64,000 bases of DNA, from NCBI GenBank assembly GCA_016716465.1, contig JADJWH010000006.1:118701-182700 (forward strand), in the 5' to 3' direction. Below the pieces are notes generated by a model. That model was not told the DNA's origin. It worked only from the letters and a program-made list of their open reading frames with translations, and did no database searches. Positions 1,967 through 11,225 of the stretch are shown here, one piece after another (the first letter of the stretch is position 1; each line of letters begins with the position of its first letter). This DNA is from Gammaproteobacteria bacterium. Lineage in GTDB: Bacteria > Pseudomonadota > Gammaproteobacteria > SZUA-140. A program made the position numbers and the translations under genes.

Positions 1967-2258
1967 CCCTGAATTGATCGATGAAGAAAACCCGGGATGG
2001 ACCGCGGCGGACTTCAAGCGCGCGCACCCGGCTCGTGAGGTGTTACCAAAAATGGTCGGCAAGAAAACAGCGAAACGCCTACTGAAACCTCGGGGCTGAC
2101 CGGAATCACCGGATGCGAAGGTCTCGATCAGCCTGCGGACTCCACTCCAGACCTTGGCACGCCGGAAGGCCAGTGGCCCAGATTGGCAGACGCGCATGGC
2201 GGAAGCGTTAACGGAGATGTCGCCGAATTCGCGCAAACGCGCAAGCCCTAGAAATTAA
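1947..2258 (+). pseudogene. BrnA antitoxin with in-frame nonsense codon
   Basis: MKKRKPDPELIDEENPGWTAADFKRAHPAREVLP...RG*PESPDAKVSISLR...GPDWQTRMAEAL. TGA at 2097-2099 falls where the family RGRP motif needs an Arg, consistent with CGA>TGA. Confidence 0.8.
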
Positions 2259-2318
2259 TAGCAGAGGGATCTGCATACTTCACGCATAGTGTGCGGGGAA
2301 ACTCTCGCGAAAACCGTG

Positions 2319-2337
2319 GTCTGCCCCCCTATTATTC
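2319..2337 (+). repeat. GTCTGYCCYCTATTATTC end motif
   Basis: gtctgcccccctattattc; a near-identical inverted copy lies at 40845-40862 and a related variant at 2416-2431. Confidence 0.6.
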
Positions 2338-2435
2338 GGTACTGATCAAGCACGCGCTGGGTGTGATCGCTCGCGTACGCAGGACAGAGGAACAAAAGGG
2401 CCAGTATTAAAGGGCACTAACCCCTTATTTCGGCG

Positions 2436-3521
2436 TTATTTCTTTTTTCGCTTGGCCCTAATATTTTTTCTTTTGACTAACCTCACGCCTCGCTTAGCCT
2501 GCTTACCAACCAAGAGCTTGTCACAACCGCTCTCAACTAAACGAATGAAATCACGCGCATCAGAAAAATAGTTCTTAAATGCCAACCTTACTTCATCGCT
2601 TTTATCCGCCCGCACCAGAACGACATCTCTATCAGGATATTGTTCCTCCAACTCAAATAACGCTTGCAAAGCGACTGTGGCATCACGATAAGTTTGAACT
2701 TCTAAATCTCCTGTACTGGAAAATATGAGGATAGCGTTCCTATTTTCAGTAACAGCCTTATCTGCGGCATTTAATCCACGCAAAGTACGTAAAAGTCCAA
2801 TTTCACGATCCAAATTTTGAAAGTTCCGCACCAATTGACGATCTTTAACATTAGGAAATGGGCCCTTTGATCCCTCAGATGCTCGCGCAAGAATCTCGCT
2901 TGCTAACGCCATTGCATTCTCATAGCGCTTATCTCCTTCTTGGAATTTTGGCTGACTCTCAGTGACAAACCCTATTAATTCAACCGCAGTTGCCCACGCA
3001 TGCTGCACCAGTGTGCGATATTGAATTTCAACATATAGGCCAGCCAACGCCTTACCCATTTCAGATCGAACATCATATTCATACACATCATGGATTCCAC
3101 GATATCCCGTCACTTTGGGCTTCTTTATATAATCATACTTATCTAGTTCATTGCGTCGTCTATGATTAAAGCGAGCCCTATGGAACTCACTCCGAAATGC
3201 ATATAGCTGCTGTATATTTTTAAAAATCAACCTACAACCAGCCACATCATCCATGCGCGACAATTGCATTTGAGGCAGGCGCCGCAATTTATCAAAAATT
3301 GTTCGCTTTCTCTTGTGGCGCTGCGCAACTGTTATGCCAGTTTGCCGAGTCCGATTTCTCAAGACCGCTTGAAAAGTATTAAGGACAGCACGATGCGCAG
3401 CGCGCCACTCCTCAATTACGGAAAGATCCTCCGCGGTTGGAGTTCCTATACGTATATTCTCACCGGCACGATTTACGCGCGACTTTGAACCACCAGGATA
3501 CGTTTTCGCTAGACTAGCCAT
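2436..3521 (-). CDS. RelA/SpoT-domain protein, fused CapRel-like toxin-antitoxin (putative anti-phage)
   Basis: Synthetase motifs WRAAH, QRHKR...DKL, MDDVAGCR, GYRGIH, EIQYRT..QHAWATAVE, with no HD hydrolase domain. C-terminal DVVLV...AFKNYFSD region as in CapRel. AT-rich. Confidence 0.8.
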   Translation of the reverse strand: MASLAKTYPGGSKSRVNRAGENIRIGTPTAEDLSVIEEWRAAHRAVLNTFQAVLRNRTRQTGITVAQRHKRKRTIFDKLRRLPQMQLSRMDDVAGCRLIFKNIQQLYAFRSEFHRARFNHRRRNELDKYDYIKKPKVTGYRGIHDVYEYDVRSEMGKALAGLYVEIQYRTLVQHAWATAVELIGFVTESQPKFQEGDKRYENAMALASEILARASEGSKGPFPNVKDRQLVRNFQNLDREIGLLRTLRGLNAADKAVTENRNAILIFSSTGDLEVQTYRDATVALQALFELEEQYPDRDVVLVRADKSDEVRLAFKNYFSDARDFIRLVESGCDKLLVGKQAKRGVRLVKRKNIRAKRKKK

Positions 3522-3624
3522 AATTTATTTACTTTAACACCAGTCTGAGGATAACTAGTCAATTGAGCACAACAAATAGGTCACCACCCTTTTTTCGAGG
3601 GTATCTTAAATACCATCAACATTC

Positions 3625-4116
3625 TTAGCATTTTATAATATTGCACTCCAACATAATCGCATCCTCCCGCCCGCCCTTGGCCGGGTAATAATCCTTCCGC
3701 ATCCCTATACGCTTGAATCCCAACTGCTCGTACAGCGCGATGCCCGCCGCGTTCGACGGGCGCACTTCGAGCAGCAGGGTCGTTGCGCCGGCGGCGCGGG
3801 CGTCTTCGATCAGGTGATTGAGCAGCGCGCGGCCGAGGCCGCGGCGGCGCTGGTGGGGGTCGACGCAGAGGTTGAGTATGTGTGCCTCGCCGACGGCGGC
3901 GGTCATGACGCCGTAGCCGGCGATCATGCCGTCCTGCAGAACGACATGGCAGCGGTAGCCGACGGCGAGGCAGTCGCGGAAGATGCCGTCGGTCCAGGGG
4001 AAGTCGTAGGCGCGGCGCTCGATGTCCATGACGACCGGGACGTCGATCGCGCGCATCGGGCGGAAGCGGAGAGACGGCGCGGGTAACGGGGGTTCGTCGA
4101 TGCGCGCCGAGGCCAT
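3625..4116 (-). CDS. rimI: Ribosomal protein S18 alanine N-acetyltransferase
   Basis: FPWT..F, EAHILNLCV, LLEVRPSN, RKDYYP...REDA motifs. Confidence 0.92.
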   Translation of the reverse strand: MASARIDEPPLPAPSLRFRPMRAIDVPVVMDIERRAYDFPWTDGIFRDCLAVGYRCHVVLQDGMIAGYGVMTAAVGEAHILNLCVDPHQRRRGLGRALLNHLIEDARAAGATTLLLEVRPSNAAGIALYEQLGFKRIGMRKDYYPAKGGREDAIMLECNIIKC

Positions 4117-4126
4117 GTCGCCCGCC

Positions 4127-4858
4127 TCAGCCCGCGGCCGCGCCGAGGGTGCGGGCGGCGAGTTGCAGGTCGTCCCAGGTCTTGCGTTTCTCCAGCGGCG
4201 AGCGCAACAGGTAGGCGGGATGGTAGGTGACGATCAGCGGGACACCGGTATCGGCGTAGCGATGCACGCGGCCGCGCAGCGCGCCGATGCGGGTGTCGGT
4301 CTTGAGCAGGTTCTGCGCGGCGATGCGGCCGACGGCGAGGATGATCCGCGGCCGGATCAGCGCGACCTGCCGCTTCAGGTACGGCTCGCAGCAGGCCACC
4401 TCGTCCGGACTCGGGTCGCGGTTATTCGGCGGGCGGCACTTCAGCACGTTGGCGATGTAGACCGCTTCGCGCGCGAGCCCGAGCGCCCACAGCATCTCGT
4501 TCAGCAGCTGGCCGGCGCGGCCGACGAAGGGCTCGCCCTGGCGGTCTTCGTCCGCGCCGGGGGCCTCGCCGACCACCATCCACGTCGCCTGGCGGTTACC
4601 GACGCCGAACACCGTCTGCGTGCGCGTCTTTTCCAGCCCGCACAGCGTGCAGCCCTTAACACGCGCCTGCAGCGCGTCCCAGTCGAGGCGCGCGACGTCG
4701 CCGCCCGCCACATCTGTTGCAGGCGCAGCCTGCATAACGACGGGCGCTGGCGCCGCCGCGGGTTCCGGTCGCGCGGCGGGCGCGGGGTCCGCCCCGCGTT
4801 CCGCCCAGGCCTGGATGCCCATGGCCTCCAGGTACCGCAGTCGGCGCGTCTCGCTCAT
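4127..4858 (-). CDS. Family-4 (Fe-S) uracil-DNA glycosylase with a HolD-like N-terminal peptide
   Basis: CTLC, VGEAPG, PFVG, NVLKCRPPNNR and TYHPAYLLR motifs. Confidence 0.9.
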   Translation of the reverse strand: MSETRRLRYLEAMGIQAWAERGADPAPAARPEPAAAPAPVVMQAAPATDVAGGDVARLDWDALQARVKGCTLCGLEKTRTQTVFGVGNRQATWMVVGEAPGADEDRQGEPFVGRAGQLLNEMLWALGLAREAVYIANVLKCRPPNNRDPSPDEVACCEPYLKRQVALIRPRIILAVGRIAAQNLLKTDTRIGALRGRVHRYADTGVPLIVTYHPAYLLRSPLEKRKTWDDLQLAARTLGAAAG

Positions 4859-4870
4859 CGGCTCACCGCG

Positions 4871-6418
<1,548 letters not shown>

Positions 6419-6779: not shown

Positions 6780-7586
6780 TTACCGCGAGGAGTGATGGTC
6801 GTCCTTGGCGGGTTCCTCGCCCGGCTCCCGCGGGGGCTGGGACGGCGCGGGCAGTGGCGGCGGGCGCCGGTAACGCAATACCAGCCAGGCCACCGGACCG
6901 GACAGCGCGTAGACCAGCGCGATACTGAACAGTACCACCGGCGGATCGATGGAGATGAAGACGAAGACCAGCACCATAACCAGCATCGCGACGAAGGGGA
7001 TCTTGCCGCGCAGATCGAGGTCCTTGAAGCTCTTGAAGCGGACGTTGCTGACCATCAGCAGGCCGGTCAGCACGGTGAGCGGAAAGGTCAGCAGCGGGAT
7101 GTCCTCGCCGGGCATTCCGTAGTCCGCGCCCACCCAGACCAGGCCGGCGATCAGGGCCGCGGCGGACGGCGACGGCAGCCCGATGAAATAGCGCTTGTCG
7201 ACGACGCCGACCTGGATGTTGAAACGGGCCAGGCGCAGCGCGGCGGCGGCGGCGTAGATGAAGGCGGCCGTCCAGCCGAGCTTGCCCAGGCTGGCGAGCG
7301 ACCATTCGTACATCACCAGCGCGGGCGCGAGGCCGAAGGCGATCATGTCCGAGAGGCTGTCGTACTGGGCGCCGAAGTCGCTCTGGGTGTTGGTCAGGCG
7401 GGCGATGCGGCCGTCCATGCCGTCGAGGATCATCGCGATGAAGATCGCGATGGCGGCGGTATCGAAGTTTCCGCGCGAGGCGGCGACGATGGCGTAAAAA
7501 CCGGCGAACAGCGCCGCCGTGGTAAACAGGTTCGGCAGCAGGTAGATGCCGCGATGGCGCCGGGTTTCCGTGGTCTCGTCGTGCAT
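6780..7586 (-). CDS. pssA: CDP-diacylglycerol--serine O-phosphatidyltransferase
   Basis: LPNLFTT, DGMDGRIAR...SDFGAQYDSLSD, RLARFN. Confidence 0.95.
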   Translation of the reverse strand: MHDETTETRRHRGIYLLPNLFTTAALFAGFYAIVAASRGNFDTAAIAIFIAMILDGMDGRIARLTNTQSDFGAQYDSLSDMIAFGLAPALVMYEWSLASLGKLGWTAAFIYAAAAALRLARFNIQVGVVDKRYFIGLPSPSAAALIAGLVWVGADYGMPGEDIPLLTFPLTVLTGLLMVSNVRFKSFKDLDLRGKIPFVAMLVMVLVFVFISIDPPVVLFSIALVYALSGPVAWLVLRYRRPPPLPAPSQPPREPGEEPAKDDHHSSR

Positions 7587-7682
7587 GCCGCTAACCGGGG
7601 GAAGTGAGGGCTATTATAAGGAAACGGGGTTGCCCTTCAAGCAAGGGCAACCCCGCGGGCTCGACGCGCCGAAGGAGAGGGC

Positions 7683-9275
<1,593 letters not shown>

Positions 9276-9279
<4 letters not shown>

Positions 9280-10991
9280 AGGTCCTCCGAACCGAGCAGC
9301 ATCTCGGTCAGCCCCTTGCCGGCCTTCACCATCGGCCATACGTTCTCGGTCTGGTCGGTGATGACGTCGAGGAACACCAGCCGGTCCTTGAGCTTGAAGG
9401 CCTCGCGCAGCGCGCCCTCGACGTCGCCCGGCTTGTCGATGCGCATGCCGACGTGGCCGTAGGCCTCGGCCAGCTGCATGAAATCCGGCAGCGCATCCAT
9501 GTACGACTCCGAATAGCGGCTCGAATAGTCGATCTGCTGCCACTGCCGCACCATGCCGAGGTAGCGGTTGTTGAGATTCACGATCTTGATCGGCAGCCGG
9601 TACTGGCGGCAGGTCGACAGCTCCTGGATGCACATCTGGATGCTGCCCTCGCCCGTCACGCAGGCCACGTCGGCGCCGGGATTGGCGAGCTGCACGCCCA
9701 TCGCCGCCGGCAGGCCGAAGCCCATCGTGCCGAGGCCGCCGGAGTTGATCCAGCGCCGCGGCTTGTCGAACTTGTAGTACTGGGCGGCCCACATCTGGTG
9801 CTGCCCCACGTCCGAGGTGATGAAGGCATCGCCGCCCGTCACCTTCCACAGCGCCTCGATCACGGCCTGCGGCTTGATGCTCTGGCTCGAACGGTCGTAC
9901 TTGAGGCAGTTGCGCCCGCGCCACTCATCGATCTGTTTCCACCAGTCCTTGAGGGCCGCCGCGTCCGGCGCCTCGCGGCCCGCGCGCAGCTGCTCGCCCA
10001 GATCGGCCAGCACCTCGCGCACGTCACCGACGATCGGGATGTCCACCTTCACGCGCTTGGCGATCGACGACGGATCGATGTCGATATGGATGATGGTGCG
10101 CGGCTGCTGGAAGAAGTGCTTGGGGTTGCCGATCACGCGGTCGTCGAAGCGGGCGCCCACCGCCAGCAGCACGTCGCAGTGCTGCATCGCCATGTTGGCC
10201 TCGTAGGTGCCGTGCATGCCCAGCATGCCGACGAACTGCGGGTCGGTGCCCGGATAGCCGCCCAGGCCCATCAGGGTATTGGTGCAGGGAAAGCCGAGGG
10301 CGCGCACCAGCGCGGTGAGCTGCTCGGAGGCGTTGCCGAGCACCACGCCGCCGCCGGCATACACCATCGGGCGCCTGGCCTTGAGCAGGGTCTGCAGCGC
10401 CCTCTTGATCTGGCCGACATGCCCCTTGACCACCGGGTTGTAGGAGCGGATGGTCACCGACTTCGGGTAGTCGAACACCGCCTTGTGCGACGGCGCGGTG
10501 ATGTCCTTGGGGATGTCCACCACCACCGGCCCCGGCCGCCCGCTGGCGGCGAGGTAGAAGGCCTTCTTGATGGTGACGGCGATATCCTTCACGTCCTTGA
10601 CCAGGAAGTTGTGCTTCACGCAGGGTCGGGTGATGCCCACGGTGTCGCATTCCTGGAAGGCGTCCTCGCCGATGGCGTAGGTCGGCACCTGGCCTGAGAT
10701 GACCACGAGCGGGATGGAATCCATATACGCGGTGGCGATGCCGGTCACGGCGTTGGTGACACCCGGACCCGAGGTGACCAGCGCCACGCCGGTCTTCCGG
10801 GTCGAACGCGAATAGCCGTCGGCGGCATGCACCGCGCCCTGCTCGTGGCGGACCAGGACGTGCTTGACCTTGTCCTGCTTGAACAGCTCGTCGTAAAGGT
10901 GCAGCACCGCCCCGCCGGGGTAGCCGAACAGATATTCGACGCCCTCTTCCTGCAGGCAACGCACCACGATCTCCGCACCCGTGAGTTCCAC
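9276..10991 (-). CDS. ilvB: Acetolactate synthase large subunit
   Basis: [34 protein letters not shown]...NN TPP motif; GTG start at 10991 inferred. Confidence 0.96.
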
Positions 10992-11225
10992 GCTCTCGAC
11001 CTTCTCGTTCGTATTGTCTGTGTGCTGTATCCCGGACCCGGCCGCGAAGCGGACGGGCGTCCTCGGAAAATTATCCATTGTAATGAGATCGCCCGCTGAA
11101 AGATAGGGAAGCGCCTTGAATCGCGTAGGGATTCGGCGAAATCCCGGGCGCGCGACGGGGTATTCCCCGGCGCCGCCGACGCGCTAGACTGCCCCTTCAT
11201 CCCGCGGACCCGAGGAGAAAACGCA

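What the first reader, a model, noticed from the sequence alone, without database searches (positions are those of the whole stretch)
4127..4858. Fe-S uracil-DNA glycosylase with a HolD(psi)-like clamp-loader peptide, in the holD position upstream of rimI
Seen: all family-4 UDG motifs are intact, the N-terminus is MSETRRLRYLEAMGIQAWAER followed by an Ala/Pro linker, and rimI follows after 10 nt. Established (from memory): E. coli holD lies directly upstream of rimI. Its N-terminal peptide (about TSRRDWQLQQLGITQWSLR) docks on the DnaX clamp-loader collar. The psi core has a UDG-like fold, and the cryptic Pseudomonas psi was found upstream of rimI. The shared pattern RR-x3-L-x2-(L/M)GI-x2-W-x2-R is visible by eye. 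Inference: this is a catalytically active, replisome-tethered UDG, possibly an ancestral or dual-function form of psi that couples uracil repair to the fork.
Basis: partly seen in the sequence, partly recalled or inferred. Interest (0 to 1): 0.72.

Follow-up and report, generated by a model that had tools for sequence, protein, structure and literature searches.

The report
Uracil-DNA glycosylase carrying psi's clamp-loader peptide
This gene encodes an intact DNA-repair enzyme (family-4 uracil-DNA glycosylase) whose first ~20 residues match the peptide that anchors the psi subunit to the bacterial clamp loader, and the comparisons suggest that psi itself descends from such an enzyme.

Summary
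ORF 4127-4858(-) encodes a 243-aa family-4 uracil-DNA glycosylase (UDG) with every catalytic and Fe-S motif intact, preceded by a conserved 22-residue peptide and a disordered Ala/Pro linker. rimI starts 10 nt downstream.

The peptide is homologous to the N-terminal clamp-loader-binding peptide of psi (HolD). Its profile matches a diverse HolD profile with hhalign E 2.8e-9. Of 111 homologue N-termini, 98 hit Pfam DNA_III_psi and essentially nothing else. A HolD-only peptide model ranks UDG N-termini as its top 19 hits among 27,973 ORFs.

The architecture is common, not a curiosity of this genome. It occurs across Betaproteobacteria and non-enteric Gammaproteobacteria, next to rimI in 73 of 80 loci. 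E. coli, Vibrio and Pseudomonas psi genes sit directly upstream of rimI, as this gene does.

Foldseek does not support the claim that psi has a UDG-like fold. However, weak collinear core similarity exists (UDG vs P. aeruginosa psi E 4e-5; vs E. coli-type psi E 5e-4), so psi is probably a decayed descendant of this UDG.

Binding to DnaX or chi and enzyme activity are inferred, not shown. No publication describing this was found.

The parts
4127..4858 (-). Whole gene: psi-type peptide, disordered linker and family-4 UDG domain (243 aa plus stop)
   Evidence: ORF list. TIGR00758 225.9 bits and PF03167 E 2.9e-40. AlphaFold2 mean pLDDT 87.
4793..4858 (-). Residues 1-22, MSETRRLRYLEAMGIQAWAERG: psi(HolD)-type peptide predicted to bind the DnaX-complex collar. 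Family consensus RRLQYLEAMGIQAWxxR.
   Evidence: PF03603 hit at residues 4-23 against model positions 2-21. 98 of 111 homologue peptides hit PF03603. hhalign against diverse HolD gives E 2.8e-9. Tyr9, Leu10 and Trp18 are invariant. Predicted helix at 3-12, matching helix 4-11 in the HolD model.
4685..4792 (-). Residues 23-58: low-complexity Ala/Pro linker, predicted disordered
   Evidence: pLDDT below 50 for residues 24-43. In homologues the stretch between the peptide and the UDG domain is unconserved and varies from 12 to 148 residues.
4130..4684 (-). Residues 59-243: 4Fe-4S family-4 UDG catalytic domain. Key residues are Cys70, Cys73, Cys141, Cys157, GEAPG 97-101, Phe111, Asn137 and HPAYLLR 213-219.
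   Evidence: 1ui0 E 1.2e-47. Foldseek hits 4zby and 1ui1 at E about 1e-20, with TM-score 0.88-0.90 normalised to the target. The motif residues are invariant or nearly so in 60 homologues.
4859..4870 (-). 12-nt spacer between the leuA stop and the UDG start; it contains GGTGAG, a Shine-Dalgarno-like sequence, 4 nt before the ATG
   Evidence: Read from the sequence.
3625..4116 (-). rimI (ribosomal protein S18-alanine N-acetyltransferase), starting 10 nt after the UDG stop; the conserved partner gene
   Evidence: TIGR01575 130 bits against a cut-off of 86.4. rimI is adjacent on the same strand in 73 of 80 related loci. 44% identical to the gene that follows P. aeruginosa holD.
4871..6418 (-). 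leuA (2-isopropylmalate synthase), the upstream gene on the same strand; context only
   Evidence: HMGL-like, HCS_D2 and LeuA_dimer domains. leuA is directly upstream in 24 of the related loci.

Best explanation
The gene encodes a functional 4Fe-4S family-4 (UdgA-type) uracil-DNA glycosylase with a short linear motif at its extreme N-terminus. [quoted passage not shown] A flexible Ala/Pro linker of about 35 residues joins the motif to the enzyme.

Proposed mechanism (inferred, not shown): the peptide docks on the DnaX complex, so the glycosylase travels with the replisome on a leash and removes uracil at or just behind the fork.

The protein belongs to a large clade found in Betaproteobacteria and in most non-enteric Gammaproteobacteria, almost always next to rimI. 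The psi subunits of Enterobacterales, Vibrionales, Pasteurellales and pseudomonads lie directly upstream of rimI, as this gene does. They are most likely shrunken, catalytically dead descendants of this UDG that kept the peptide.
For: Shown by tool results:
- Intact UDG4: family models pass, the best solved relative is 1ui0, the predicted fold matches solved family-4 UDGs, and the catalytic and Cys residues are invariant or nearly so in homologues.
- Peptide homology to psi:
  - 98 of 111 isolated 30-aa N-termini hit PF03603; no other family is hit by more than 2.
  - hhalign against enterobacterial HolD gives E 2e-5, and against 80 diverse HolD representatives E 2.8e-9 with probability 96%. 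In both the aligned residues are the N-termini of both proteins.
  - A 26-position model built from HolD sequences alone was searched against 27,973 six-frame ORFs. Its top 19 hits are all UDG N-termini.
  - The betaproteobacterial variant (L-x-E-L-G-L-x-P-x-W, one residue longer) also matches HolD, E 1.7e-7.
- The peptide is conserved while the linker is not.
- Synteny: rimI is adjacent in 73 of 80 loci. holD precedes rimI in E. coli, in Vibrio and in P. aeruginosa, where the two overlap at ATGA.
- Core relationship:
  - The HolD model hits UDGs in three collinear blocks.
  - hhalign of the cores alone gives E 5e-4 over 78 collinear columns.
  - The two local scores, 25.8 and 24.7, stand against a 95th percentile of 15.2 in 200 column shuffles.
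  - 37 of 80 HolD cores exceed the 95th percentile of their own shuffles against the UDG-core model, and reversed sequences show no such excess.
  - The pseudomonad psi core matches the UDG core at E 4e-5, probability 70%. In my stricter local run 0 of 150 shuffles reached the real score.
  - Pseudomonad psi and HolD cores match each other at E 1e-7.

From the literature:
- Psi cannot be found in several genomes whose chi retains a conserved psi-binding site (PMC3197488).
- P. aeruginosa psi has the layout of a conserved N-terminus, about 85 disordered residues, and then the core (PMC3197488).
Against: - The window's own peptide is sub-threshold when taken alone: PF03603 gives 13.3 bits against a cut-off of 22.2, and the HolD-only model gives 6.4 bits, rank 33.
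- A narrow model built from close UDG relatives scores E. coli HolD no better than noise.
- Structure comparison does not link the two cores. The HolD model finds only psi structures, and no UDG appears in its top 50. No psi appears in the top 50 hits of the UDG model.
- HolD and pseudomonad-psi profiles find no UDG among PDB sequences.
- The core similarity is only E 1e-3 to 4e-5 in single targeted comparisons. The sequences within each family are related, so the rank and shuffle statistics count families rather than independent events.
- No binding, activity or expression data exist for any member of the clade.
- Whether this genome has another psi elsewhere is unknown.
Confidence: 0.7

Rival explanations
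1. The protein is the true psi subunit of these organisms. It would be a stoichiometric clamp-loader component that binds DnaX through the peptide and chi through the UDG domain, thereby linking SSB to the clamp loader, with glycosylase activity as a second function. This extends the best explanation rather than excluding it.
For: - Chi genes lie in the E. coli order pepA-holC-valS in two of the related loci, L029 and L042, so these lineages have chi.
- No canonical psi core is encoded in the window or in the 80 loci.
- Psi cannot be found in several genomes whose chi keeps its psi-binding surface (PMC3197488).
- The gene position matches holD.
- The C-terminal block P-x-x-K-R-x-x-W is shared by psi and the UDG.
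Against: - There is no evidence that a UDG domain can bind chi.
- The cores are barely similar, and Foldseek does not relate them.
- Only about 20 kb per genome was inspected, so a divergent psi elsewhere, like the 'cryptic' pseudomonad one, cannot be excluded.
Confidence: 0.3
2. The peptide is homologous to the psi peptide but does not bind the clamp loader here. It could be an evolutionary remnant, or it could bind another partner such as RimI, SSB or the beta clamp.
For: - The conserved link to rimI in both gene orders could hint at a different partner.
- The C-terminal half of the E. coli binding peptide (RPGALQGE, residues 21-28) is not conserved in the UDGs.
Against: - The peptide is conserved in families as distant as Burkholderia and Chromatiales while the adjoining linker changes freely. 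That pattern argues for a maintained interaction.
- The only function known for the homologous peptide is collar binding (PMC11436948; PDB 3gli and 9oyg peptides, listed).
- The peptide contains no beta-clamp motif of the QL[SD]LF type.
Confidence: 0.12
3. The N-terminus is a twin-arginine (Tat) export signal for an Fe-S protein; T-R-R-L-R-Y-L resembles S-R-R-x-F-L-K.
For: The RR-x-x-Y-L pattern sits at the N-terminus of a cofactor-containing protein (sequence).
Against: - No uncharged hydrophobic stretch follows. The conserved motif contains Glu11, Glu20 and Arg21, and the linker is acidic and proline-rich, varies in length from 12 to 148 residues, and has no A-x-A cleavage site.
- No NCBIfam model matched the N-terminus except a weak low-complexity hit.
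- The homologous E. coli peptide is cytoplasmic and has been seen bound to the clamp loader.
- A periplasmic DNA glycosylase has no substrate.
Confidence: 0.02
4. The resemblance is due to chance, or the start codon is miscalled and the peptide is not translated.
For: - Single-sequence scores are weak.
- The motif is only about 18 residues long.
Against: - The family-level statistics rule out chance.
- The peptide is conserved at the amino-acid level in homologues that are only 50-65% identical overall, and it lies in frame upstream of an unconserved linker.
- A Shine-Dalgarno-like GGTGAG precedes the ATG at 4858.
Confidence: 0.02

Closest known systems
Family-4 uracil-DNA glycosylase (UdgA; Thermus thermophilus UDGA 1ui0, Thermotoga maritima 1l9g, Sulfolobus tokodaii 4zbx)
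   Same: - Same catalytic domain, with 46% identity to 1ui0 in the Foldseek alignment.
- All motifs and the four Cys ligands are present.
- Same fold, with TM-score 0.88-0.90 normalised to the target.
   Different: In the alignments the solved enzymes begin about 10-20 residues before the CxxC. This protein has about 58 extra N-terminal residues: a conserved psi-type peptide followed by a disordered linker. Its gene is locked to rimI.
E. coli psi (HolD; PF03603; PDB 1em8, 3sxu, 3gli, 8giy)
   Same: - N-terminal peptide in the same register: RR-x3-L-x2-(L/M)GI-x2-W-x2-R.
- Predicted short helix at the same place.
- Gene immediately upstream of rimI.
- Two weak collinear core blocks.
   Different: - Psi is 137 aa. 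It has no motif A, no histidine in motif B and no Cys ligands, and it binds chi.
- This protein has a full-size UDG domain.
- It does not reach the Pfam cut-off for psi, and Foldseek does not relate the two cores.
Pseudomonas aeruginosa 'cryptic' psi (PA4679, 278 aa)
   Same: - Same three-part layout: conserved N-terminal peptide, long Pro/Ala-rich disordered linker, then a core of about 160 aa.
- Gene overlaps the start of rimI.
- The core keeps UDG4-like strings: GEPF-x-x-R, LL-x-D-LL-R-A-A-G-L and N-x-D-x-G-P (PMC3197488).
   Different: - It has no GE(A/G)PG motif, no motif-B histidine and no Cys ligands, so it is not an enzyme.
- It has been shown biochemically to be psi, and its N-terminal part binds DNA (PMC3197488, PMC8879598).
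Replisome-tethered UDGs elsewhere: human UNG2 (PCNA- and RPA-binding motifs in a disordered N-terminus), archaeal family-4 UDGs that bind PCNA, poxvirus D4 and herpesvirus UNG as replisome parts
   Same: The logic is the same: a uracil glycosylase is brought to the replication machinery by a short motif or by becoming a subunit of it (my own knowledge; PMC1936997 and PMC5934625 appeared).
   Different: The docking site here would be the clamp loader collar, not the sliding clamp. As far as I know, no bacterial case has been described.

Membership tests
Family-4 UDG (UdgA type) | Scores above the curated cut-off of the family model | tested here: met
   TIGR00758 scores 225.9 bits against a cut-off of 125.3. 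PF03167 scores 138 bits against 24.3.
Family-4 UDG (UdgA type) | Motif A GE(A/G)PG and motif B HP(S/A)xxLR, with the stacking Phe and the Asn | tested here: met
   GEAPG at 97-101, Phe111, Asn137 and HPAYLLR at 213-219. All are invariant in 60 homologues and aligned to 1ui0.
Family-4 UDG (UdgA type) | Four Cys ligands for a 4Fe-4S cluster | tested here: met
   Cys70, Cys73, Cys141 and Cys157 are present and conserved. Actual cluster binding cannot be tested with these tools.
Family-4 UDG (UdgA type) | UDG alpha/beta fold | tested here: met
   AlphaFold2 gives pLDDT above 90 over most of the domain. Foldseek finds 4zby, 1ui1 and 1l9g at E about 1e-20, with TM-score 0.88-0.90 normalised to the target.
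Family-4 UDG (UdgA type) | Uracil excision from DNA | not testable with these tools
   Needs an enzyme assay.
UdgX (covalent uracil-DNA binding protein) | Scores above the curated cut-off of the family model | tested here: not met
   TIGR03914 scores 155.9 bits against a cut-off of 189.95.
DNA polymerase III psi subunit (HolD, PF03603) | N-terminal clamp-loader-binding peptide | tested here: met
   At family level: 98 of 111 peptides hit PF03603, hhalign gives E 2.8e-9, and the HolD-only model ranks UDG N-termini first. The window's own peptide alone reaches only E 0.098.
DNA polymerase III psi subunit (HolD, PF03603) | Psi core domain (chi-binding); whole-protein score above the Pfam cut-off | tested here: not met
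   13.3 bits against a cut-off of 22.2, and the match covers only model positions 2-21 of 127. Only weak collinear core similarity exists (E 5e-4). Foldseek does not link the folds.
DNA polymerase III psi subunit (HolD, PF03603) | Gene adjacent to rimI | tested here: met
   10 nt upstream of rimI in the window. The same arrangement holds for holD in E. coli, Vibrio and P. aeruginosa.
DNA polymerase III psi subunit (HolD, PF03603) | Binds the DnaX3-delta-delta' complex and binds chi | not testable with these tools
   No complex prediction was available, and biochemistry is needed.
Tat (twin-arginine) signal peptide | RR motif followed by an uncharged hydrophobic region and an A-x-A cleavage site | tested here: not met
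   Conserved charged residues follow the RR, there is no hydrophobic stretch, and no signal model matched.

The most novel reading that the evidence does not exclude
This UDG is the long-sought 'missing psi' of Betaproteobacteria and most Gammaproteobacteria. On this reading it is an enzymatically active, stoichiometric clamp-loader subunit that binds DnaX through its peptide and chi through its UDG domain. The psi of E. coli and Pseudomonas would then be its catalytically dead, progressively shrunken descendant.
Probability: 0.3. Interest if true: 0.92.

Novelty: new variant of a known kind. Interest (0 to 1): 0.8.

Why it matters
Psi is known only from a narrow set of Gammaproteobacteria. 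A HolD profile found just 241 clusters among 1.84 billion representative proteins. Chi, in contrast, occurs more widely and keeps a conserved psi-binding site (PMC3197488). What occupies the psi site on the clamp loader elsewhere, and where psi came from, are open questions.

This finding offers a concrete and abundant candidate: a repair enzyme carrying the psi docking peptide at the psi gene position.

If the peptide binds DnaX, three things would follow.
- It would be the first bacterial case of a uracil glycosylase tethered to the replisome, parallel to UNG2-PCNA in eukaryotes.
- It would reveal a new class of clamp-loader client.
- It would make psi an example of a replisome subunit that arose by decay of an enzyme.

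All three can be tested directly with proteins from culturable species such as Burkholderia, Nitrosospira or Thiothrix.

Tried and rejected
- A narrow model of 102 UDG peptides scored E. coli-type HolD at only 5-6 bits, no better than random ORFs. The model is too specific to show the relationship, so diverse HolD sequences were needed.
- phmmer of the 29-aa peptide against PDB sequences found nothing.
- Ten betaproteobacterial peptides scanned one at a time against Pfam found nothing. Only their profile matches HolD. Some of those sequences were padded with Ala at the C-terminal end; the padding lies outside the columns aligned to HolD.
- The HolD and pseudomonad-psi profiles searched against PDB sequences found no UDG.
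- Foldseek with a HolD model found psi structures and then only generic alpha/beta proteins at E above 0.2. Foldseek with the UDG model shows no psi in the 50 hits listed.
- Merging the two psi families into one profile did not strengthen the match to the UDG core (E about 1e-3).
- One column shuffle in each gave an outlying score of about 133, which I did not investigate. In one search the shuffles listed no collinear hit pairs at all, so only the single-hit scores serve as a control there.
- An exact look-up of the window protein in the contig index found nothing, so the rest of this genome could not be reached.
- Seven literature searches found no paper linking family-4 UDG to psi.
- The Tat-signal and beta-clamp-motif readings of the peptide were considered and rejected on the sequence itself.

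Full report
**1. What is in the window**

ORF 4127..4858 on the minus strand encodes 243 residues.

- Residues 59-243 are a complete family-4 uracil-DNA glycosylase (UDG). TIGR00758 scores 225.9 bits against a cut-off of 125.3. PF03167 gives E 2.9e-40. The UdgX model stays below its cut-off.
- The closest solved protein is Thermus thermophilus UDGA (1ui0, E 1.2e-47).
- The four Cys ligands (70, 73, 141, 157), GEAPG 97-101, Phe111, Asn137 and HPAYLLR 213-219 are all present. They are invariant or nearly so in 60 homologues.
- An AlphaFold2 model (mean pLDDT 87) superposes on solved family-4 UDGs, with Foldseek E about 1e-20 and TM-score 0.88-0.90 normalised to the target.
- In front of the domain lie a short predicted helix (residues 3-12) and a stretch with pLDDT below 50 (residues 24-43).
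- rimI (3625..4116, TIGR01575) starts 10 nt after the stop codon. leuA ends 12 nt before the start. A GGTGAG sequence precedes the ATG.

**2. Is the N-terminal peptide psi-like?**

Single-sequence evidence is weak.

- The 29-aa peptide hits only PF03603 (DNA_III_psi), at residues 4-23 against model positions 2-21. The score is E 0.098 and 13.3 bits, against a cut-off of 22.2.
- It finds nothing among PDB sequences.
- A narrow model built from close relatives does not lift E. coli HolD above noise.

Family-level evidence is strong.

- The 120 best homologues share x-R-R-L-Q-Y-L-E-A-M-G-I-Q-A-W-x-x-R, followed by an unconserved linker.
- I scanned 111 distinct 30-aa N-termini one at a time, without any UDG sequence attached. 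Of these, 98 hit PF03603 (best E 1.2e-5), and no other Pfam family was hit by more than two.
- Profile against profile, the peptide matches enterobacterial HolD with E 2e-5.
- Against 80 diverse HolD representatives (collected, aligned) it gives probability 96% and E 2.8e-9 over 24 columns. The aligned columns are the N-termini of both proteins.
- As a control free of UDG information, I built a 26-position model from HolD sequences alone. I searched it against all 27,973 six-frame ORFs (2.46 million residues) of the window and 80 related loci. The top 19 hits are all N-termini of UDG ORFs. The UDG ORFs are relatives of one another, so this is a statement about the family and not 19 independent events.

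In E. coli, psi residues Thr2-Glu28 are the natively unstructured segment that lies across the collar domains of all three gamma subunits (PMC11436948). The corresponding PDB peptides are listed.

**3. How widespread is it, and where does the gene sit?**

A scan of one genome per species returned 595 relatives, of which the best 80 were kept.

- They come from many non-enteric Gammaproteobacteria: Thiogranum, Thiohalomonas, Competibacteraceae, Steroidobacteraceae, Nevskiales, Thiothrix, Methylococcaceae, Chromatiaceae, Thioalkalivibrio, Woeseia and Arenicellales.
- They also come from Betaproteobacteria (Burkholderia, Paraburkholderia, Rubrivivax, Ideonella, Nitrosospira, Thiobacillus, Gallionella, Aquitalea, Aromatoleum) and from Acidithiobacillus.
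- rimI is adjacent on the same strand in 73 of 80 loci. It lies downstream in 41 (the gammaproteobacterial order, often leuA-UDG-rimI) and upstream in 32 (the betaproteobacterial order).
- A strict pattern finds the peptide in 63 of the 81 UDG reading frames (80 loci plus the window). At least ten more carry recognisable variants.
- Between the peptide and the start of the UDG domain lie 12 to 148 residues.
- The betaproteobacterial form (for example MAWAEAALEELGLAQIWVRR in Burkholderia cenocepacia) has one extra residue before the Trp. It misses Pfam when scanned singly, but its profile matches HolD N-termini with E 1.7e-7.

Psi genes occupy the position this gene holds in the Gammaproteobacteria, directly upstream of rimI.

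- In E. coli, holD overlaps rimI.
- In Vibrio, holD is followed by a RimI-like acetyltransferase and prfC.
- In P. aeruginosa, I recovered PA4679 (278 aa, TTG start) from a metagenome contig by using a published primer. Its stop codon overlaps the ATG of a gene that is 44% identical to the window's RimI.

**4. Is the psi core related to the UDG core?**

I could not reproduce this by structure search.

- A confident HolD model (pLDDT 89) finds the psi crystal structures, then only generic alpha/beta proteins at E above 0.2. No UDG appears in the top 50.
- HolD and pseudomonad-psi profiles find no UDG among PDB sequences.

Sequence comparison, however, gives a weak but repeatable collinear signal.

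- A full-length HolD model hits many UDG ORFs in three blocks, always in the same order:
  - the N-terminal peptide;
  - psi 52-72 (PLVSDVLRALTVSPDQVLQLT) with UDG 117-137 (QLLNEMLWALGLAREAVYIAN);
  - psi 102-126 (QVASPALTDLRANPTARAALWQQIC) with UDG 209-233 (IVTYHPAYLLRSPLEKRKTWDDLQL).
- With the peptide removed, hhalign of the two cores gives E 5e-4 over 78 collinear columns.
- The two local hits score 25.8 and 24.7, against a 95th percentile of 15.2 in 200 column shuffles.
- Run the other way, a UDG-core model scores 37 of 80 HolD cores above the 95th percentile of their own shuffles, and 15 of 80 above the 99th. Reversed sequences show no such excess.

The pseudomonad psi looks like an intermediate.

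- Its core matches HolD cores at E 1e-7.
- In a full-length comparison with the UDG family, its best match lies in the core and not in the peptide. Psi 137-191 (ELPTGEPFASRDPGYLLLRDLLRAAGLPDSPRLIGEPVRWPLLARGNLDQGPQAA) aligns with UDG 104-154 (EDRQGEPFVGRAGQLLNEMLWALGLAREAVYIANVLKCRPPNNRDPSPDEV), with probability 70% and E 4e-5.
- In my more conservative local run, 0 of 150 shuffles reached the real score.

Taken with the shared peptide and the shared gene position, I put the probability that psi is a decayed family-4 UDG at about two in three. The Foldseek result remains unexplained on that reading. Heavy trimming of the fold in E. coli psi is a possible reason, but I could not test it.

**5. 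Is there a separate psi, and is there a chi?**

- No ORF in the 64-kb window or in the 80 loci matches the psi core, and only the UDG ORFs match the peptide.
- Chi (holC) lies in the E. coli order pepA-holC-valS within 10 kb of the UDG-rimI pair in two loci, L029 and L042. These lineages therefore do have chi.
- The rest of this genome could not be reached.
- Canonical HolD is a narrow family: 241 clusters among 1.84 billion representatives. The most divergent ones I named come from Haemophilus, Spirabiliibacterium, Vibrio and Photobacterium.
- The literature states that psi cannot be found in several genomes whose chi keeps a conserved psi-binding site (PMC3197488).

**6. Mechanism and rival readings**

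Shown:
- an intact UDG4 domain;
- a conserved N-terminal motif homologous to the psi collar-binding peptide;
- a disordered, unconserved linker;
- conserved adjacency to rimI;
- positional equivalence with holD.

Inferred:
- the peptide docks on the DnaX complex and tethers an active glycosylase to the replisome;
- psi descends from this protein.

Open: whether the UDG domain also binds chi, which would make the protein a true psi.

Rejected:
- a Tat signal, because no hydrophobic region follows the RR, conserved charged residues do, and no signal model matched;
- a chance match or a miscalled start.

**7. Novelty**

Seven full-text searches found nothing that links family-4 UDG to psi. Precomputed Pfam annotation already tags a few homologues with PF03603 plus PF03167 (P0078 and P0120), so databases do hold the hint. 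Subscription journals were not searched.

I class the finding as a new variant of a known kind: a family-4 UDG equipped with the psi docking peptide. It also carries a more novel evolutionary implication about the origin of psi.

Noticed in passing
window 2200-3600 (ORF 2436..3521, minus strand): A low-GC island (42-45% GC, against 65-73% around it) lies directly downstream of rimI. It holds a 361-aa protein with a RelA/SpoT nucleotidyltransferase domain (PF04607, E 5e-13) that matches the PADLOC candidate defence family PDC-S33 at E 2.4e-103. It looks like a horizontally acquired candidate anti-phage gene.
   Followed up: partly
L092:9396-10232 (+) and proteins P0433-P0545: The experimentally established psi of pseudomonads (PA4679 family) has no precomputed Pfam domain. 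Most NCBI and UniRef records name it 'energy transducer TonB', presumably because of its Pro/Ala-rich linker, so it looks systematically misannotated.
   Followed up: partly
L021, L027, L033, L054 and others (Burkholderiales loci), about 9150-10650: In Betaproteobacteria the gene order is reversed (rimI, then UDG, often overlapping). The peptide has one extra residue (L-x-E-L-G-L-x-P-x-W-x-R-R), and there can be more than 100 residues between the peptide and the UDG domain.
   Followed up: partly
L056:9779-10717 and L081:9707-10567 (Acidithiobacillus): The N-terminus reads (Q)RQFL(K/Q)LL(G/H)L(A/S)VPG(E/D). It is a degenerate version of the peptide that lacks the otherwise invariant Trp and Arg, so the docking function may have been lost. 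rimI was not detected in these two loci.
   Followed up: no
L029:16396-20708 and L042:11801-16517: pepA-holC-valS, in the same order as in E. coli, lies within 10 kb of the UDG-rimI pair. Chi and the peptide-bearing UDG are therefore near neighbours in at least two genomes.
   Followed up: partly
HolD model m32e6ef760ca7 against the UDG model m158dea48e6aa: Unexplained discrepancy: sequence profiles give repeatable collinear similarity between the psi and UDG cores, but Foldseek ranks unrelated flavodoxin-like proteins above any UDG for psi.
   Followed up: partly
window 6780-11078 (minus strand): Upstream of leuA, the translations look like a phosphatidylserine synthase-like membrane protein (6780..7586), ketol-acid reductoisomerase (7683..8756) and the large subunit of acetolactate synthase (9276..11078), suggesting a branched-chain amino-acid cluster. 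These were read by eye from the translations and not checked against family models.
   Followed up: no
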